Positions 5,345 to 39,820 of a stretch of DNA of 64,000 nucleotides are shown piece by piece. Made by a program: the position numbers and the translations under genes. The notes beneath the pieces were generated by a model, which saw only the letters and a list, made by a program, of their open reading frames with translations, searched no databases and was not told the origin of the DNA. The DNA comes from Octopus vulgaris (taxonomy: Eukaryota), in assembly GCA_951406725.2 (NCBI GenBank), contig OX597814.1:40548001-40612000 (forward strand), in the 5' to 3' direction. Each line of letters opens with the position of its first letter. Within the stretch, counting starts at the first letter, position 1.

Positions 5345-6010
5345 ATTCAGTAGTTTTGTTTTTAATCACGTGATTTCACTGCACTACCGAGCGCAGCCCT
5401 GTGTGCCTTGGGTGTGTGCTATGGTTTGTTGTAGTGCTACGTTTCTTCACTGGATTAAAAGTGATTTACGTAGGATGTGCGCGGTGCCTAGTAATGCTGT
5501 TTTGTGTTTGTTTTATTTACATGTAACTTTGGGTGATTTTGTTATGTATTTGTCTTAATATTTTTTTTCATATCTAATGCGCCTACTATGCTAGGTATTG
5601 TTTCTACTTTTAGCTTCCACATTCGAGTTACATTTATTTCTAAATTTTTGTATTTTGACAGATTGTCCGTTTCTTTTAGGGGAATATTATCATCTGTTGA
5701 CATTGATCTATCTATTAGAAAGCATTTTCTTTCTCGATGATTTCTGACAACTATATCCGGCCTATTCTTTGTGTGCATCGGCATATCCCAGAGTATGGTC
5801 GCTTTCTTATAATCTGTGACCTTTTTGATTTTAATTTCTTATTTCTGGTTTGATTTAAATTTCTTATTTCATTTGCATTATCTCGGGCGATTTAGTTACT
5901 CTTAACCAGTGTTCCTCTTTTTAAAGTTGCTTTTGTACATTCTTCTTAGCCAAATTTCATGTTTATTTCTTTGGTAAATCCATATAATATCTGTAATAAT
6001 CTTTCCAGTT
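5345..6010 (-). mobile_element. Decayed, internally deleted R4/Dong fragment (REL end plus short RT piece)
   Basis: ORF 5542-5784 NRPDIVV..FLID..LSKYKNLEI..IVGAL; FTKEINMKFG near 5950-6000. Confidence 0.85.
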
Positions 6011-6027
6011 CATCATCATCATCATCA

Positions 6028-6115
<88 letters not shown>

Positions 6116-6712
6116 CAGCAGTAGTAGTATTAGTAGCAGTAGTAGTAGTAGCAGTTGTAGTAGTAGTCGTAGCAGTAGTAGCAGTAGCAGTAGTAGTAGT
6201 AGTAGTAGTAGTAGTATAATTGTTGTTGTTGTTGGTGGTGGTGGTGGTGGTGGTACTGGTGGTAATGGTGGTGGTGTTATTATTAATATTATTATTATTA
6301 TTGTTAACCATTAAACATTTTTCAGTAAACTGATTTTCTGTTACTCTTCTTGACTCAGTTGAGTCGGAAATGAAAATATTAAAATCATTCTCTTTGTGTT
6401 TCTGAATGGTAGCTACAAGGAATTAAATGAATATTCGGTTTCCCAATTCGTTGCTTGCATGTTCGTGGGCTTTCGAGGAGAAGTGGTTTGTCTGTGCAAT
6501 ATATATTTCTTCAAAATAAGGGTACTGATTGTATTTTACCTTTGCAGTTCTTATTTCCATTTAGAAATATGGTACTCCGGGTTTTACGTTGATATGCCAA
6601 CACACTCACATACACATTTATACATACATACTTACATATATATATATATATATATATATATAACAAAGTGGAGTTGTAGGGTACCGCACGAGTGGAATTA
6701 TATACGAAAGAA

Positions 6713-6772
<60 letters not shown>

Positions 6773-7092
6773 TTATACTAGCGTATATCACCCCGACTGT
6801 CATTGCAATTGTAATCCATAAACATTTTATCATTGTTCCCTAGGACATACTGCGAATTCAATGACGATTTCTTTTACTTAACCTGAAACTTATTTATTTT
6901 TTTACCTCATAAAATCGTCCACGTAAATATAACAACACCTATGTCCTCAAGCGTTCATAGAGAGGACATTAAATAGTTGGATCGCCGGACAAAATCTCTT
7001 AAACATTGAAATATCATTATGTTGGTGCATAATTATTGCGGCTTTTATCAAAACATTTTATTCAACAAAAACAAAATTTACCTGAAACAAAG
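5777..7092 (+). repeat. Source of a ~1.3-kb local duplication
   Basis: Near-identical to 9674-11012 apart from microsatellite lengths and a few substitutions. Confidence 0.95.
6010..6310. repeat. Compound trinucleotide microsatellite (CAT)(TAT)(TAG/CAG)(TTG)(GTG); second copy at 9907-10228
   Basis: Directly visible. Confidence 0.95.
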
Positions 7093-9149: not shown

Positions 9150-11500
<2,351 letters not shown>

Positions 11501-18052: not shown

Positions 18053-18345
18053 TTACTCTCTTGAGTAGCGAGAGTACATATTTACGAGTATGGAGTTCTG
18101 TGTTAGGCGTTCTTTAAGCCTTCTGTCCCACCATACCATGAAAAGGTTGGCCACATCACCAGCGATACTAACGCCGATGGCTGCCCCCTCGTCCTGGGCA
18201 TATATTTTATTATTAAACTTAAACGTGTGGCCTTTTAGGGTAATTCTTATACTAGCTCCTAGTGCATGTGCGATCATTTTCTTTATCTGATGGACATTTG
18301 CGGGGCTCCGTATGACTCTGGTCCATCCGCGCCATCTTTCTAGAC
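18053..18345 (-). mobile_element. Penelope-like RT fragment
   Basis: FKFNNKIYAQDEGAAIGVSIAGDVANLFM...MYSRY matches the PLE RT motif FxFxxxxYxQxxGxxMG...ANxFM...RY(VDD); truncated before the DD. Confidence 0.85.
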
Positions 18346-18424
18346 ATAATATATATATATACACATATATATCTACAATTATATGTATTTGTGTATCTAT
18401 GTATATTTTATAGTTCAAATTTGT

Positions 18425-19265
18425 GGCCATGCTCAGTCACAGCAGATTTGCTATACTGTTATTACTGAGGGCACCTCCTCTGAGATGTGTATTTCGGTGA
18501 ATAAGTTAGTTTCATGTCGCTACTCTCATTTGCACCGCCTGTCATGAGGTAGGTTCTTCTGGGACTCTCGAAAAGAAAGAGGCCCAGTTTTGATTTGAAA
18601 ACAAGTACATCCACTTTGCATCGCTCACTCTTTGGGAGAGGATTAAAAACCTGTGGACCGCCAATATCTATGGTGTTGCAGTACCTGCTCTTGAAGCGTG
18701 ACAGTATTTCTGAGATATTTAACACTGTACAGTATGGACCCGTTCAGGCATTTGTGTAGCTCTTAATGCCAAAATTTGTCACAATATTTTCGAGAAAGCT
18801 CCAGATGTATAGTACTGGATACCCTTCCCGCGTCCAGACATTCCCAGTAGCTGAGCTGTTGCAATGAGACGATCTTCTTTGTGAAGCGTCGCCGAAATGC
18901 TTCAAGGTCCGCTGTTAATTTTCCATTGTTGGGTCACTATAGCTGTGAACAGTAATCCAGGCTTTTGAGGAAGAATATCCTATAGAGGACAATTATGGCT
19001 TCTTTCTCCCTGGATTTGAATATTCTCAGGATACATCCAGCCATACGTCTGCTCTTTGTAACCATCCTCGTAACATACACTTGAAAAAATACCCAGATCC
19101 CTCTCTGATTTAGGCCTGGGATTATAATCTCCTGTGGCCCAGTGTACCCTGTAATGTTCATATTCAGCTTTGGACTCTGGTAGCGCAGGTCTTTGGATTT
19201 TTCAGCATGAAACTGCATATCTGTAAATTGTTTCCTCAGCCTATCTTTAAATTGTTTCTCCATTT
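18425..19265 (-). mobile_element. Decayed CR1/L2-group LINE 3' part
   Basis: MQFHAEK, RMAGCILRIFKSRE, LDYCSQL, RYCNTIDIGGPQVFN; homologous to 34700-35500. Confidence 0.85.
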
Positions 19266-33321: not shown

Positions 33322-35592
33322 GTAAGAGATCCTCAAACAAAACTGGCCTGAATGTCTCTCCTCGCCGGACATCGACATGAAACTTCAACAATTCATGTCT
33401 GTAATGCAAGCCATATGCTACAAATGAGTCCCAGAGAGAAAGGCCACTATACACAAGAACACAATCCCCAGAGAGAGGAAAATTCTAATGAGACGGCGCA
33501 CAAATATCTCAAATCGCCTAAACAAACAAATTGAAAGCAGTGAAAAGTCCCGCCTGAAAATGAAACTGTTGGAAATTGAAAACTGTCTGCAACTCTCCCA
33601 TGAAAAGGAAAGAGCAGACAAAGAAGCCTGGACTATATACAACATAAAATATAACCCCAGATCTTTCTACAGGTATGCCAAAGAAACAGCTACGGTGCAC
33701 TGTAGGATAGGGCCACTCCTTGAAAGGGATGGCACACTCACAGGAAATCCAATGAGGGTAAGTGAAATACTAAATGAGCAATTCAAGAGTGTTTTCACCC
33801 CACCCCTTGGGCATTTCCAAATCAGCAATCCAACTGACTTCTTCACCACTGCAGATATGGGGTCAGAAGCGGCGATGATTGATTACGTCAATATAAAGGA
33901 AGACGATGTAATAAAGGCTATAGATGAGATGGAAACAAACTCAGCCACTGGCCCCGATGGATTCCCAGCAATCCTTCTAAAAGTATGTAAGAGGGTCCTA
34001 GCAAGGCCACTGCGGTCTCTCTTTCAGAGCTTCCTTGCAACTGGCAAACTTCCAAGTAAACTGAAGGAAGGTAAAATATGCCCTATTCATAAAGGAGGTA
34101 GCAGAGCGGAGGCCAAGTAGTACAGACCTATCTCCCTAACCTCACACATCAGCAAGGTCATGGAACGAATAGTCAGAAGGAAACTAATCACCTTCCTTGA
34201 AGAAAATGACTTGCTGCCTGACACCCAACATGGTTTCCGACCAGGAAGAAGCTGCTTAACTCAGCTCCTACAACACTATGACTTGGTGCTGAAACAACTG
34301 CTCAACCACTCAAATGTGGAAGTCATATATCTCGACTTTGCAAAGGCCTTTGATAAAGTCGATCATGGAATGATATGTCACAAACTGTGTGATCTTGGCA
34401 TAGTTGGAAAATTGGGAGAGTGGCTTCATGACTTTCTGAAGAATAGAAGTCAGGTGGTAACAGCCAATGGGGCCACTTCCATTAACACGCAAATAGTGAG
34501 CGGTGTTCCGCAGGGCACTGCTTTGGGACCACTACTGTTCATAATGGCCCTCTCAGACTTGCCCTCAGCCACGCAGAGAGCCACGATCACAAGTTATGAA
34601 GATGATAGAAAAGTCTCACAGGCAATACAGAACCCTGAAGACACTAAGCACCTGCAATGTGAGCTGGACGAAGTATACAAGTGGGCTGAACAGAATAGCA
34701 TGCAGTTCAATGCTGAAAAGTTTCAAGCTTTATACTATTAGCATGCAAAACTGAATGCAATACCCAATGAATACACTGGGATTGCTATCCCAGAGGCACA
34801 ATCAGTGCGTGACTTGGGTATTCACATGAGTGATGACGCGACCTTTCATGTACATGTTGCTAAACTGGCAATGAAATGTAGACGGCTGGATGGATGGATT
34901 CTTAGAACCTTTAGAACAAGAGAACAAGAAACCATGATGGTCCTCTGGAAGACACTTGTCCTAAGCCACTTTGACTATTGCTCTCAGCTATGGTCACCAT
35001 CCAGTGTCAAGTTGATCACAGAACTTGAGGCGATCCAACGAAGCTACACGAAGAAGATAGCCTCTGTGCAGCATATGAGCTACTGGGAAAGACTCAAGAG
35101 ATTAGAGCTCTATTCCCTGGAGCGTAGGCGAGAAAGATATGCCATAATATATATCTGGAAGATCCTGGAAGGACTTGTCCCAAACTTTGGCATCGCGAGT
35201 CACACACATGCCAGAACCGGGCGCCACTATGTAGTACCAAGGACTCCAAATTTGCCATCAAGATGTAGGACAAGATATTGTGATAGCCTGGGCTTCAGAG
35301 GCCCACAGCTCTTCAATATCCTCCCAAAGAACCTGAGGGACCTGCATGGTGTAGATGCGGATGTCTTTAAAGTAGGACTGGACCTCTTCCTGTCAGGTGT
35401 CCCGGATGAACCAACTTCACGGCAGTAGGTGCAGATGAGGGCAGCTGCATCGAACTCTCTCATGCATCAGATGGCATTTGCTAAAAAGCATCCGTGAGGT
35501 AAAATCGTGTAGCAAACCAAATGGCGGTGCCCCAGCATGGCCACAGCTCATTAGCCGAAACTGGAAAAAATCAAAAATCAAAATCAAAATCA
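33322..35592 (+). mobile_element. 5'-truncated CR1/L2-group LINE; RT pseudogene with in-frame stops and (AAAATC)n tail
   Basis: ORFs 33488, 34160 and 34805 share one frame; GPDG, YRPISLTS, QHGFRPGRSC, YLDFAKAFDKVDH, SGVPQG, YEDD (YADD mutated), RDLG; stops at ~33425, 34118, 34739 and 35426. Confidence 0.95.
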
Positions 35593-37666: not shown

Positions 37667-37833
37667 GTGCTGAATGATTTCAATACCAGTCCGCTAGAAA
37701 TAGACCCCTGGTTTCCATGAACTACTTAGATTATTACTACAGTAAGTTGTAAGCGAGGAACACAGAAAGCGAGGATTTGTGAAATCCGAGGACTATCCAT
37801 TTCTAGCGGACTGGTATTGAAATCATTCAGCAC
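37667..37833. repeat. ~35-bp inverted repeat with ~95-bp spacer
   Basis: gtgctgaatgatttcaataccagtccgctagaaat / atttctagcggactggtattgaaatcattcagcac. Confidence 0.85.
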
Positions 37834-37874: not shown

Positions 37875-37930
<56 letters not shown>

Positions 37931-38100
37931 TAATATAGTTATCGCCATACTAATATGGCATTCTTATAAAAATAAGAAAAAAGCTGTCCGCTTGTTAGCT
38001 CCATGAGGCCATCGCCTTAAGTTAGCTAATTGATACACAAACTGTATCCATATAACCTTGGAACAAGGGAGGTCAGTCGCTCCACACTACTTGACCGGCA

Positions 38101-38142
38101 GCTACAGACGCGTTTCGGGGTATTGCCCCTTTTCAATGCAGC
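38101..38142 (-). ncRNA. Minimal hammerhead ribozyme, U3:A8 covariant, copy 1
   Basis: Minus: gctgca-TTGAAAA-gggg-caata-cccc-GAAAC-gc-GTC^-tgtagc; 6-bp stem I, 4-bp stem II, palindromic ACGCGU. Confidence 0.8.
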
Positions 38143-38462
38143 GTAGCCAGCCAGTAGGTGTCGCTTCCGACAATCTCTGTTCGATGGTTTTATTTACCTA
38201 ACTTCGGTGGAATACATCCACTTGTTTTCAATAATAGAAATATTAAAGTAACTAAGTCTCTTTAAAAGAGAACAGCGGCAGCGTTCCCGGAAAATAATAG
38301 TTATCGCCATACTAATATGGCATTCTTATAAAAATAAGAAAAAAGCTGTCCGCTTGTTAGCTCCATGAGGCCATCGCCTTAAGTTAGCTATTTGATACAC
38401 AAACTGTATCCATATAACCTTGGAACAAGTGAGGTCAGTCGCTCCACACTACTTGACCGGCA

Positions 38463-38504
38463 GCTACAGACGCGTTTCGGGGTATTGCCCCTTTTCAATG
38501 CAGC
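38463..38504 (-). ncRNA. Minimal hammerhead ribozyme, U3:A8 covariant, copy 2
   Basis: Identical to 38101-38142, 362 bp away. Confidence 0.8.
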
Positions 38505-38676
38505 GTAGCCAGCCAGTAGGTGTCGCTTCCGACAATCTCTGTTCGATGGTTTTATTTACCTAGCTTCGGACAGCTTTTTTCTTATTTTTATAAGAATGCC
38601 ATATTAGTATGGCGATAACTATTATTTTCCGGGAACGCTGCCGCTGTTCTCTTTTAAAGAGACTTAGTTATTATAA

Positions 38677-38736
<60 letters not shown>

Positions 38737-38755
38737 CATATATACACACATATAT

Positions 38756-38802
<47 letters not shown>

Positions 38803-38879
38803 TATTTATATATATACACAGATATGCAGGAAGTAAATAGACAACTGCAATTTTCAAAATTTCAGATCTAAGCGTCTGA

Positions 38880-39820
38880 ATATATATTCAGCGGTGTAGA
38901 ATTTACAATGTAATTATTCTTTTTCATTCCAGGTGCTATTATATTAATCCTTTGCGAAGAGTAACCATGCCCCGCACAAAAAATTCAGCAGAACTGTCAG
39001 ATTTGCAAAGAGGTCGTATTGTTGGGAAATCTGAGCCTGGACTTGGCCAGCAAAAAATTGCCAAAAATCTCCAAATTCATCTTGCTCCTGTTAAGAGAAT
39101 TATAGTACATTTCAAGAGCTAAGTAATAAACAGATTCTCGTCCTGGCCGACCTAGGCCCTCGGCAAGGAGGCTTCGCTGTTTAAAGAGATTTGTTGAAAA
39201 CGAACCCCTTTCGAAGAATTCTGACATTGCAAAACAGCTAGAAATTAGTCCAAGAACGTCTGTTACATATCTGCATAAGCTCGTATATTATGGACGAACC
39301 GCTGGAAGAAAACTTCTCCTTCAATCAACTAATATCACGAAAAGAAATAAATGGGCTAAGGAAATGTCAGAAAAACCCAGTTCATTTGGGGATAAAGTGA
39401 TTTTCTCATATGAATTCAGATTTGCATTATTTTCAGACAGTGGACGTGTTTGGATCTGGAGGCTTCCCAATCAAGAATTTGATTTGAAATGACTCCATCC
39501 GCCGTGAAACATGGCGGTATCCCTGTAATGGTATGGGGACCTGTCATCAGCAGTGGTCGTTCTGAGCTGATCGAATGTGTTGAAACCATAAACTCTGAAA
39601 AATACATCGAAATATTTTAGCAAGGACTACTTCCGATGTACTCCCACGATAACATAACGAAAAACGAGTATTTATTCATGGAAGATGGGGTTCCATGACA
39701 CAGCGAAAAGGAATCAACAATGGTTGATTGAAAATGGGATCAAAAAGTTTCAGTGGCCGAGCCAATCTCCTAACATGTACCCAATTGAAAATCTTTGGAG
39801 CATACTGGATAGAAGCCTTC
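38880..39820 (+). mobile_element. Tc1-family transposase pseudogene
   Basis: MPRTKNSAELSDLQRGRIVG from 38967, RPGRPR, VIFSYE.RF, FMEDG, WPSQSPNMYPIENLW; truncated by a SINE. Confidence 0.88.

What the first reader, a model, noticed from the sequence alone, without database searches (positions are those of the whole stretch)
37932..38684. Tandem pair of U3:A8 variant hammerheads 362 nt apart: a candidate retrozyme-like monomer/circular RNA
Seen: on the minus strand there are two identical motifs gctgca-UUGAAAA-gggg(caata)cccc-GAAAC-gc-GUC-uguagc. The canonical CUGANGA is replaced by UUGAAAA, changing both partners of the 3:8 pair. Known: the C3-G8 tertiary pair tolerates compensatory swaps, so standard CUGANGA searches would miss this motif. 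Inference: the palindromic stems III of the two copies could pair as a dimeric ribozyme, and cleavage at both GUC sites would release a 362-nt unit that could circularise. Near identity of the repeats suggests a young insertion.
Basis: partly seen in the sequence, partly recalled or inferred. Interest (0 to 1): 0.82.

Follow-up and report, generated by a model that had tools for sequence, protein, structure and literature searches.

The report
Penelope-mobilised hammerhead retrozyme family in octopus
This is one young copy of a 362-base repeat with hundreds of copies in an octopus genome, each carrying a predicted self-cleaving RNA with a rare but already published core, and its insertion ends match those of Penelope-like retrotransposons, which likely move it.

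Summary
In detail: two identical type I hammerhead motifs with a U3-A8 core lie 362 nt apart on the minus strand. It belongs to a non-coding family with 845 exact core matches genome-wide, plus older sister subfamilies (about 72-85% identical). The sisters keep U3-A8, show compensatory stem changes and keep helix III palindromic in three versions. In 39 of 56 loci the copies are head-to-head, with one end at unit position ~276 and the other at ~339; none has two like ends. This is the published 'tail' signature of Penelope-like elements (PLEs). Two active autonomous PLE families in this genome show it too, and one carries the same U3-A8 core. Best reading: a non-LTR retrozyme, i.e. a non-autonomous PLE. 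Cleavage, circles and the partner are not shown; no DNA homology to either PLE was found. U3-A8 is already published (PMC3088659, PMC4209133). New member of a known kind, with a useful mechanistic handle.

The parts
37935..38685 (-). Whole insertion: one full unit plus 273 nt in tandem, preceded by a head-to-head inverted arm
38208..38569 (-). 362-nt non-coding unit, 42% G+C; no tRNA gene, no ORF of 110 aa or more
37935..38207 (-). Second, partial unit (positions 1-273), stopping at the family's 'short' 3' end
38567..38685 (+). Inverted arm (unit positions 218-336), stopping at the family's 'long' 3' end; 3-nt overlap at the inversion junction
38463..38504 (-). Type I hammerhead 1: stem I 6 bp, U3-A8 core, stem II 4 bp, palindromic helix III; predicted cut between 38469 and 38468
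38101..38142 (-). Type I hammerhead 2, identical; predicted cut between 38107 and 38106
38445..38522 (-). Predicted long hairpin extending stem I and enclosing hammerhead 1; one compensatory pair between subfamilies
38107..38468 (-). Predicted 362-nt cut-to-cut monomer (circle inferred, not observed)
   Evidence: circular fold -112.4 kcal/mol, z -4.8, 0 of 100 shuffles as stable
38231..38293 (-). 'Tail': about 60-63 nt between the two fixed 3' end points (unit ~276 and ~339)
37876..37929 (.). (TA)n target tract, left flank
38686..38790 (.). (TA)n-rich target tract, right flank

Best explanation
It is a young insertion of a 362-nt non-coding, hammerhead-bearing repeat family (a non-LTR retrozyme) that is likely copied through RNA and inserted into (TA)n tracts in trans by the reverse transcriptase-endonuclease of a Penelope-like element. 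Shown: the family, its copy number, the (TA)n targets, the tandem plus head-to-head layout, the two fixed 3' end points about 60 nt apart, and two intact PLE families in the same genome with the same insertion signature. Inferred: a multi-unit transcript is made; two hammerheads pair through their palindromic helix III and cut after GUC; the 362-nt monomer may be circularised by a host ligase; a PLE protein nicks both strands of a TA tract and primes cDNA twice, once at each fixed internal site, on a circular or uncut multimeric RNA; the two cDNAs run through one or more units and join in the middle, giving the inverted insertion with a tail at one end only. The likeliest partner is the PLE lineage that carries the same U3-A8 core.
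For: Family: 201 matches among 40 scored of 1145 candidates; 845 exact core matches; 730 more to a sister-type pattern, about a fifth of the first 100 listed being variants of this family. Ends: 39 of 56 loci have one short and one long end, 0 of 56 have two like ends, and 83 of 93 classified ends run into TA repeats (binomial p 4e-12 for 39 of 39). PLE papers describe inverted 5' copies, a tail at one end only and (TA)n targets, and two internal reverse-transcription start sites flanking the tail. PLE family 1 (1312-aa ORF): 14 of 35 loci had both ends called, all long plus short; tail 57 nt. PLE family 2 (479-aa ORF1, 781-aa RT plus GIY-YIG): U3-A8 core with the ACATGT palindrome, 1331 matches; long plus short in the 3 two-ended loci seen. 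Structure: four pairs change on both sides between subfamilies, against 0-1 in slid controls. RNA template: 16 of 92 5' junctions fall at unit 140-149, the 3' side of the predicted ribozyme hairpin; 0 of 1000 uniform simulations reach 16. Copies within a locus differ by 0.50%, between loci by 1.50%.
Against: No DNA homology between the unit and either PLE's terminal repeat; local alignment scores were matched by 85-195 of 200 shuffles. The tail length (60-63) fits PLE family 1 (57) better than the U3-A8 family 2 (38), so the partner is unsettled. This family's palindrome (ACGCGT) differs from family 2's (ACATGT). One sister locus, L128, has two long ends (1 of 39). The four compensatory pairs are mostly one subfamily split, and that count does not beat the shuffle control (247 of 500). 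Arms read through many uncut ribozyme sites (up to 4145 nt), and L049 is mixed at one site across its units, which a pure monomer circle would not give. Published PLE hammerheads cleave weakly or only with protein, and 8 of 9 Xenopus retrozyme dimers did not cleave.
Confidence: 0.85

Rival explanations
1. Same PLE-driven mobility, but the hammerhead is a passenger. The template is an uncut linear multimeric transcript, and no circle is needed or made.
For: In the anole PLE, ribozyme mutants did not affect insertion in vitro and no reads began or ended at the cut site. L030 and L106 carry a variant only in the outermost unit of both arms, as a heterogeneous linear multimer would give; L049 and L005 are mixed across units.
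Against: Core, stems and palindrome are kept across subfamilies about 20-25% apart. Eight locus-private variants are shared by all covering copies of their locus, five of them in L103, which suggests a monomer bottleneck. In-register and out-of-register arm comparisons do not differ (0.63% vs 0.51%, p 0.22). Nine of 92 5' junctions lie at 97-107, around the cut site at 101/102 (window chosen after seeing the data).
Confidence: 0.35
2. A minisatellite born from a PLE terminal repeat and amplified locally by DNA mechanisms (unequal crossover), as the 2026 preprint suggests for some retrozyme arrays.
For: Within-locus homogeneity and mixed arrays such as L049; the model is stated.
Against: Copies are dispersed over many chromosomes. 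Both outer ends are fixed and complementary in type, and 5' junctions vary from locus to locus. Local duplication does not produce this.
Confidence: 0.05
3. A fold-back or MITE-like DNA transposon, or a SINE moved by a LINE, with a chance hammerhead look-alike.
For: Insertions have terminal inverted repeats and sit in TA tracts; LINE and Tc1-like remnants are nearby.
Against: The two termini are always different points of one unit, the inside is tandem, and there is no tRNA gene and no poly(A) end. Two PLE families show the same end rule.
Confidence: 0.04

Closest known systems
Metazoan non-LTR retrozymes (Cervera and de la Pena 2020, PMC7229834; mussel units of about 350-390 nt)
   Same: Short tandem non-coding unit under 50% G+C with a type I hammerhead and a short palindromic helix III; dispersed multicopy; PLEs proposed as mobilisers.
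   Different: U3-A8 core; head-to-head inversion and two fixed ends were not found in the passages read ('inverted' 0 times, 'octopus' 0 times in the main text). Circles were shown there, not here.
Non-LTR retrozymes as non-autonomous PLE derivatives (bioRxiv 10.64898/2026.07.22.740005)
   Same: Same conclusion: retrozymes depend on PLEs.
   Different: Their evidence is co-occurrence and pLTR homology in Xenopus; here it is the insertion signature, with no pLTR homology found. They favour local amplification for arrays; here each array looks like one insertion event.
U3-A8 hammerheads: natural covariation (Perreault 2011, PMC3088659) and about 1,300 U3-A8 minimal hammerheads of Schistosoma Cercyon PLEs (PMC4209133)
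   Same: Same 3:8 swap, and also tied to PLEs.
   Different: Those of Schistosoma are heterogeneous, mostly single, minimal motifs. Here the motif has a canonical 6-bp stem I and 4-bp stem II, in a homogeneous tandem unit.
EN+ Penelope-like element insertions (PMC8557442, PMC3846280) and anole Poseidon internal priming (PMC11167929)
   Same: Partial tandems, inverted 5'-truncated copy, tail at one end, AT-rich or (TA)n targets, two internal start sites.
   Different: No ORF; tail about 60 nt rather than 30-40; arms of many units.
Non-autonomous Chlamys elements such as MRC1 (PMC8557442)
   Same: Non-autonomous PLE derivatives with multicopy head-to-tail insertions.
   Different: Those generally resemble their autonomous partners at the 3' end, and most Chlamys elements lack canonical hammerheads; here there is a hammerhead and no detectable DNA similarity.

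Membership tests
Type I hammerhead ribozyme | Three helices around the core, open at stem I | tested here: met
   Stems I and II predicted at 0.94 or more; 93.5% of cells paired across 16 sequences; helix III is 2 bp with a palindromic 2-nt loop
Type I hammerhead ribozyme | Conserved core with a Watson-Crick 3:8 pair and a UH cleavage site | tested here: met
   U3-U4-G5-A6-N7-A8-A9, GAAA, GUC; U3 and A8 in 38 of 38 sister motifs while N7 differs; U3-A8 is a known active swap
Type I hammerhead ribozyme | Site-specific self-cleavage | not testable with these tools
   Needs in vitro transcription; only contigs were available, which cannot show RNA ends
Type I hammerhead ribozyme | Dimeric active fold through inter-copy helix III | tested here: inconclusive
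   Palindrome kept in 37 of 38 sister motifs; 6-bp duplex -7.5 kcal/mol; the nested folding model gave 0 for the inter-copy helix, which it cannot represent together with both stems I
Non-LTR retrozyme | 150-450 bp tandem unit, one type I hammerhead per unit, under 50% G+C | tested here: met
   362 nt, 42% G+C, arrays of up to about 11 units
Non-LTR retrozyme | Non-coding, dispersed multicopy | tested here: met
   No ORF of 110 aa or more; a 43-aa frame has no homologue among longer proteins; 845 matches
Non-LTR retrozyme | Expressed as linear and circular monomer RNA | tested here: inconclusive
   Four runs guessed to be RNA hold contigs over the unit, but none is on record as RNA and no silent control was laid
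Non-LTR retrozyme | Target-site duplication | not testable with these tools
   Flanks are (TA)n, so a duplication cannot be discerned
Non-autonomous Penelope-like element | Partial tandem plus inverted 5'-truncated copy | tested here: met
   44 of 56 loci have both orientations
Non-autonomous Penelope-like element | Tail at one end only (two 3' end points) | tested here: met
   39 of 56 long plus short, 0 like-ended; sisters 11 of 39 long plus short, 1 long plus long
Non-autonomous Penelope-like element | Sequence homology to the terminal repeat of an autonomous PLE | tested here: not met
   Two PLE families plus one further ORF-bearing locus tested; only the short hammerhead core is shared with family 2; other PLE families of the genome were not examined
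Non-autonomous Penelope-like element | Mobilised in trans by a PLE protein | not testable with these tools
   Needs an in vitro priming or cell-based transposition assay

The most novel reading that the evidence does not exclude
Each insertion is made by a dimeric Penelope-type enzyme that primes twice, about 60 nt apart, on one retrozyme RNA (a ribozyme-made circle or multimer), one primer per target strand, and the retrozyme is served by the octopus PLE lineage that shares its U3-A8 hammerhead. That would be a defined animal retrozyme-PLE pair and a twin-priming rule that explains the tandem, inverted, one-tailed layout of all PLE insertions.
Probability: 0.3. Interest if true: 0.7.

Novelty: new member of a known kind. 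Interest (0 to 1): 0.42.

Why it matters
Animal retrozymes are thought to be moved by Penelope-like elements, but the papers read argue from co-occurrence and homology, and state that the mechanism is open. This family leaves the PLE insertion signature at most loci sampled, is very young, and has two intact, about 99% homogeneous candidate partners in the same genome. A 362-nt RNA with two mapped start sites is a ready substrate for the published in vitro PLE assay (PMC11167929). It also shows that searches fixed on CUGANGA can miss whole retrozyme and PLE families (about 2,900 exact U3-A8-type matches over three patterns). The U3-A8 core itself is not a surprise.

Tried and rejected
Rfam scan: only microsatellite-driven miRNA-like hits, no hammerhead. 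RNA evidence: no RNA holder listed. Contigs of four runs guessed to be RNA cover the unit, but cannot show strand, ends or level, and two of their loose ends trace to a sister copy just downstream of a host gene. A 392-nt contig (362+30, a closed loop) occurs in run X17 of unknown kind; tandem DNA gives the same, so it is not counted as a circle. No contig spanned the locus, so an empty allele could not be tested. Zero non-U3 and non-A8 matches are not counted as selection: N7 and other A/U core positions were also invariant in 142-147 aligned copies. The pattern search does report such variants when present (1 C3 and 1 G8 in the first 100 rows). A 43-aa frame across the tail as a remnant PLE N-terminus: no homologue, and the frame is broken in the sisters. 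Loose ends and 40 sister-subfamily loci followed in search of an ORF-linked copy: none. In-register versus out-of-register test of circle against linear template: no difference. Pfam gave no hit on the 1312-aa ORF; it is called a PLE from 21-28% matches to the 781-aa RT-GIY-YIG ORF in RT and C-terminal regions and from its insertion layout. Earlier scan findings: none. Lunse et al. on dimeric PLE hammerheads is not held; only its title was seen in a reference list.

Full report
Observation. Each reads as a type I hammerhead: a 6-bp stem I, core U3-U4-G5-A6-A7-A8-A9, a 4-bp stem II, GAAA, a 2-bp helix III inside the palindrome ACGCGU, and GUC at the cut. The pattern occurs twice in the window and never in 100 shuffles. 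The motif lies in a longer hairpin (z -3.4). Rfam does not report it. The whole element is 37935-38685.

Family. The genome is 2.8 Gb and is an octopus, judged by a protein 98% identical to one labelled Octopus vulgaris. The unit gave 201 matches among 40 scored of 1145 candidates and the core 845 exact matches. Divergence from the majority base is 0.39% in 23 best-hit loci and 0.82% in 56 loci, so the family is young. Loose ends of run contigs led to older sister subfamilies, about 72-85% identical to this unit, with the same unit size and end points. None of 40 sister loci examined is joined to a PLE ORF.

Is the ribozyme fold conserved? In 16 aligned sequences 93.5% of cells pair. One pair each in the outer stem, stem I and stem II, and the centre of the helix III palindrome, change on both sides; slid controls give 0-1 such pairs. 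These changes are mostly one split between subfamilies, and the count of such pairs does not beat the shuffle (247 of 500), so this is support, not proof. In 38 sister motifs U3 and A8 are constant while position 7 is U or C rather than A, and the palindrome is ACATGT (33), ACTAGT (4) or broken (1). Some old sister copies have decayed elsewhere in the core (U4 changed in 3 of 12). No copy with another base at 3 or 8 was found for this family, but other A/U positions are equally invariant, so the pair is fixed, not shown to covary. U3-A8 is published: natural covariation and in vitro activity in PMC3088659 (passages), and about 1,300 motifs in Schistosoma Cercyon PLEs in PMC4209133 (parts 1-2 of 4 read).

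Insertion anatomy. I examined 56 loci: 22 from the best hits (8 overlapping duplicates dropped), 3 picked from the same list, and 31 taken from the chromosome 1 rows of the pattern list. Of these, 39 are head-to-head with one outer end near unit position 276 and the other near 339; 12 have one orientation only; 5 have one irregular end; none has two like ends. In the 31 pattern-list loci the figure is 18. Of 93 classified ends, 83 run into TA repeats. The window's copy follows the rule (273 and 336). Sisters gave 11 of 39 long plus short and one exception with two long ends. Inner junctions vary, mostly with 1-10 nt overlaps or short inserts. They cluster at 140-149, on the 3' side of the predicted ribozyme hairpin (16 of 92; 0 of 1000 uniform simulations reach 16), and more weakly at 97-107, around the cut site (9 of 92; window chosen after seeing the data). 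The first cluster is what a reverse transcriptase stalling at a folded RNA would leave (inference).

Comparison with PLEs. Partial tandems, an inverted 5'-truncated copy, a 30-40 bp tail often at one end only and (TA)n targeting are described for PLEs (passages of PMC8557442 and PMC3846280). In the anole PLE the tail lies between two internal reverse-transcription start sites, both target strands are cut and extended, the protein is predicted to be a dimer, and the hammerhead cleaves only with protein and is not needed for insertion in vitro (PMC11167929, parts 1-2 of 4). Two intact PLE families occur in this genome. Family 1 has a 1312-aa ORF, copies 99% alike, a minimal hammerhead-like motif with C3-G8 and C at 9, and a 57-nt tail; of 35 loci, 14 had both ends called and all were long plus short. 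Family 2 has a 479-aa ORF1 and a 781-aa ORF with RT (28.9 bits, just under Pfam's cut-off) and GIY-YIG domains, copies 97-99.7% alike, and a 38-nt tail; the 3 two-ended loci seen were long plus short. Its terminal repeat carries a U3-A8, U7 core with the ACATGT palindrome, as in the sister subfamilies; 1331 matches, 98 of the first 100 listed being U3-A8. Neither family shows DNA homology to the unit beyond that core. The core favours family 2 and the tail length favours family 1; other PLE families were not catalogued.

Template. Copies within a locus differ by 0.50% (0.54% between opposite arms) against 1.50% between loci; 90 variants are shared by all covering copies of a locus, 50 of them across both arms, while 155 are not shared by all. 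Both arms therefore come from one template or one source locus. Eight private variants shared by all units (five in L103) suggest a monomer bottleneck, as a circle would give, though 'private' is relative to 56 loci only. Against a pure monomer circle: L049 is mixed at one site over its units, and L030 and L106 carry a variant only in the outermost unit of both arms. The register test was null. The predicted circle is more stable than 100 of 100 shuffles and leaves the hammerhead folded. RNA data did not decide anything.

Literature position. Non-LTR retrozymes, their circles and the PLE hypothesis are in PMC7229834 (passages and Discussion) and bioRxiv 10.64898/2026.07.22.740005 (parts 1 and 3 of 5 and passages; its supplements are closed and could list relevant families). 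Searches for octopus with hammerhead and ribozyme and with Penelope listed no paper on this family by title or abstract start. The 2026 O. vulgaris repeat annotation has no 'ribozyme' or 'hammerhead' in its main text; its repeat library and supplements were not checked and may hold the unit as an unclassified repeat. Searches listed no paper applying twin priming to PLEs or retrozymes by title or abstract start. Subscription papers, including Lunse et al., were not seen. The labels twin priming and Neptune-like are recalled, not tested.

Verdict. A real and well-conserved hammerhead-like motif in a young non-LTR retrozyme family that inserts like a Penelope element. The U3-A8 core, the retrozyme class and the one-ended tail are each known. 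What is added is a cephalopod family, a near-strict one-short-one-long rule at dozens of loci, and two named candidate partners. New member of a known kind; interest 0.42.

Noticed in passing
L168:2581-6281 and L163-L179 (G000, many places): An active 4.8-kb Penelope-like family with a separate 479-aa upstream ORF overlapping the 781-aa RT-GIY-YIG ORF in another frame; the papers read describe PLEs with a single ORF. Its terminal repeat has a U3-A8 hammerhead core.
   Followed up: partly
L041:2442-7111 (G000, many places): An active 4.7-kb Penelope-like family with a 1312-aa ORF containing a long Asn-rich insert, and a minimal hammerhead-like motif with C in place of A9 in all 15 motifs printed.
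   Followed up: partly
window 18053-18436 (-): Fragment of the RT of the 1312-aa Penelope-like family; used as the query that found it.
   Followed up: yes
L081:1527-1852 and L082 (G000:C30): A sister-subfamily copy lies about 700 nt past the stop codon of two duplicated genes that look like alpha-1,3-fucosyltransferases (recalled likeness, not searched); contigs of runs guessed to be RNA join it to the upstream sequence.
   Followed up: partly
window 38343-38564, run X14 contig: A low-depth contig with about eight A-to-G differences on the plus strand; possibly A-to-I editing of an antisense or fold-back transcript, or a diverged copy.
   Followed up: no
window 33428-35428 (+): A LINE-type RT region split by stop codons into three in-frame pieces of 206-230 aa.
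   Followed up: no
window 38827-39492: A high-copy Tc1/mariner-like transposase remnant right beside the element.
   Followed up: no
window 5946-6821 and 9843-10763: Two near-identical blocks about 3.9 kb apart, seen as duplicated ORF translations; a local duplication or an assembly artefact.
   Followed up: no
window 37692-37719 and 37782-37825: A short inverted repeat pair just left of the element, seen in the printed sequence; unrelated to the unit.
   Followed up: no
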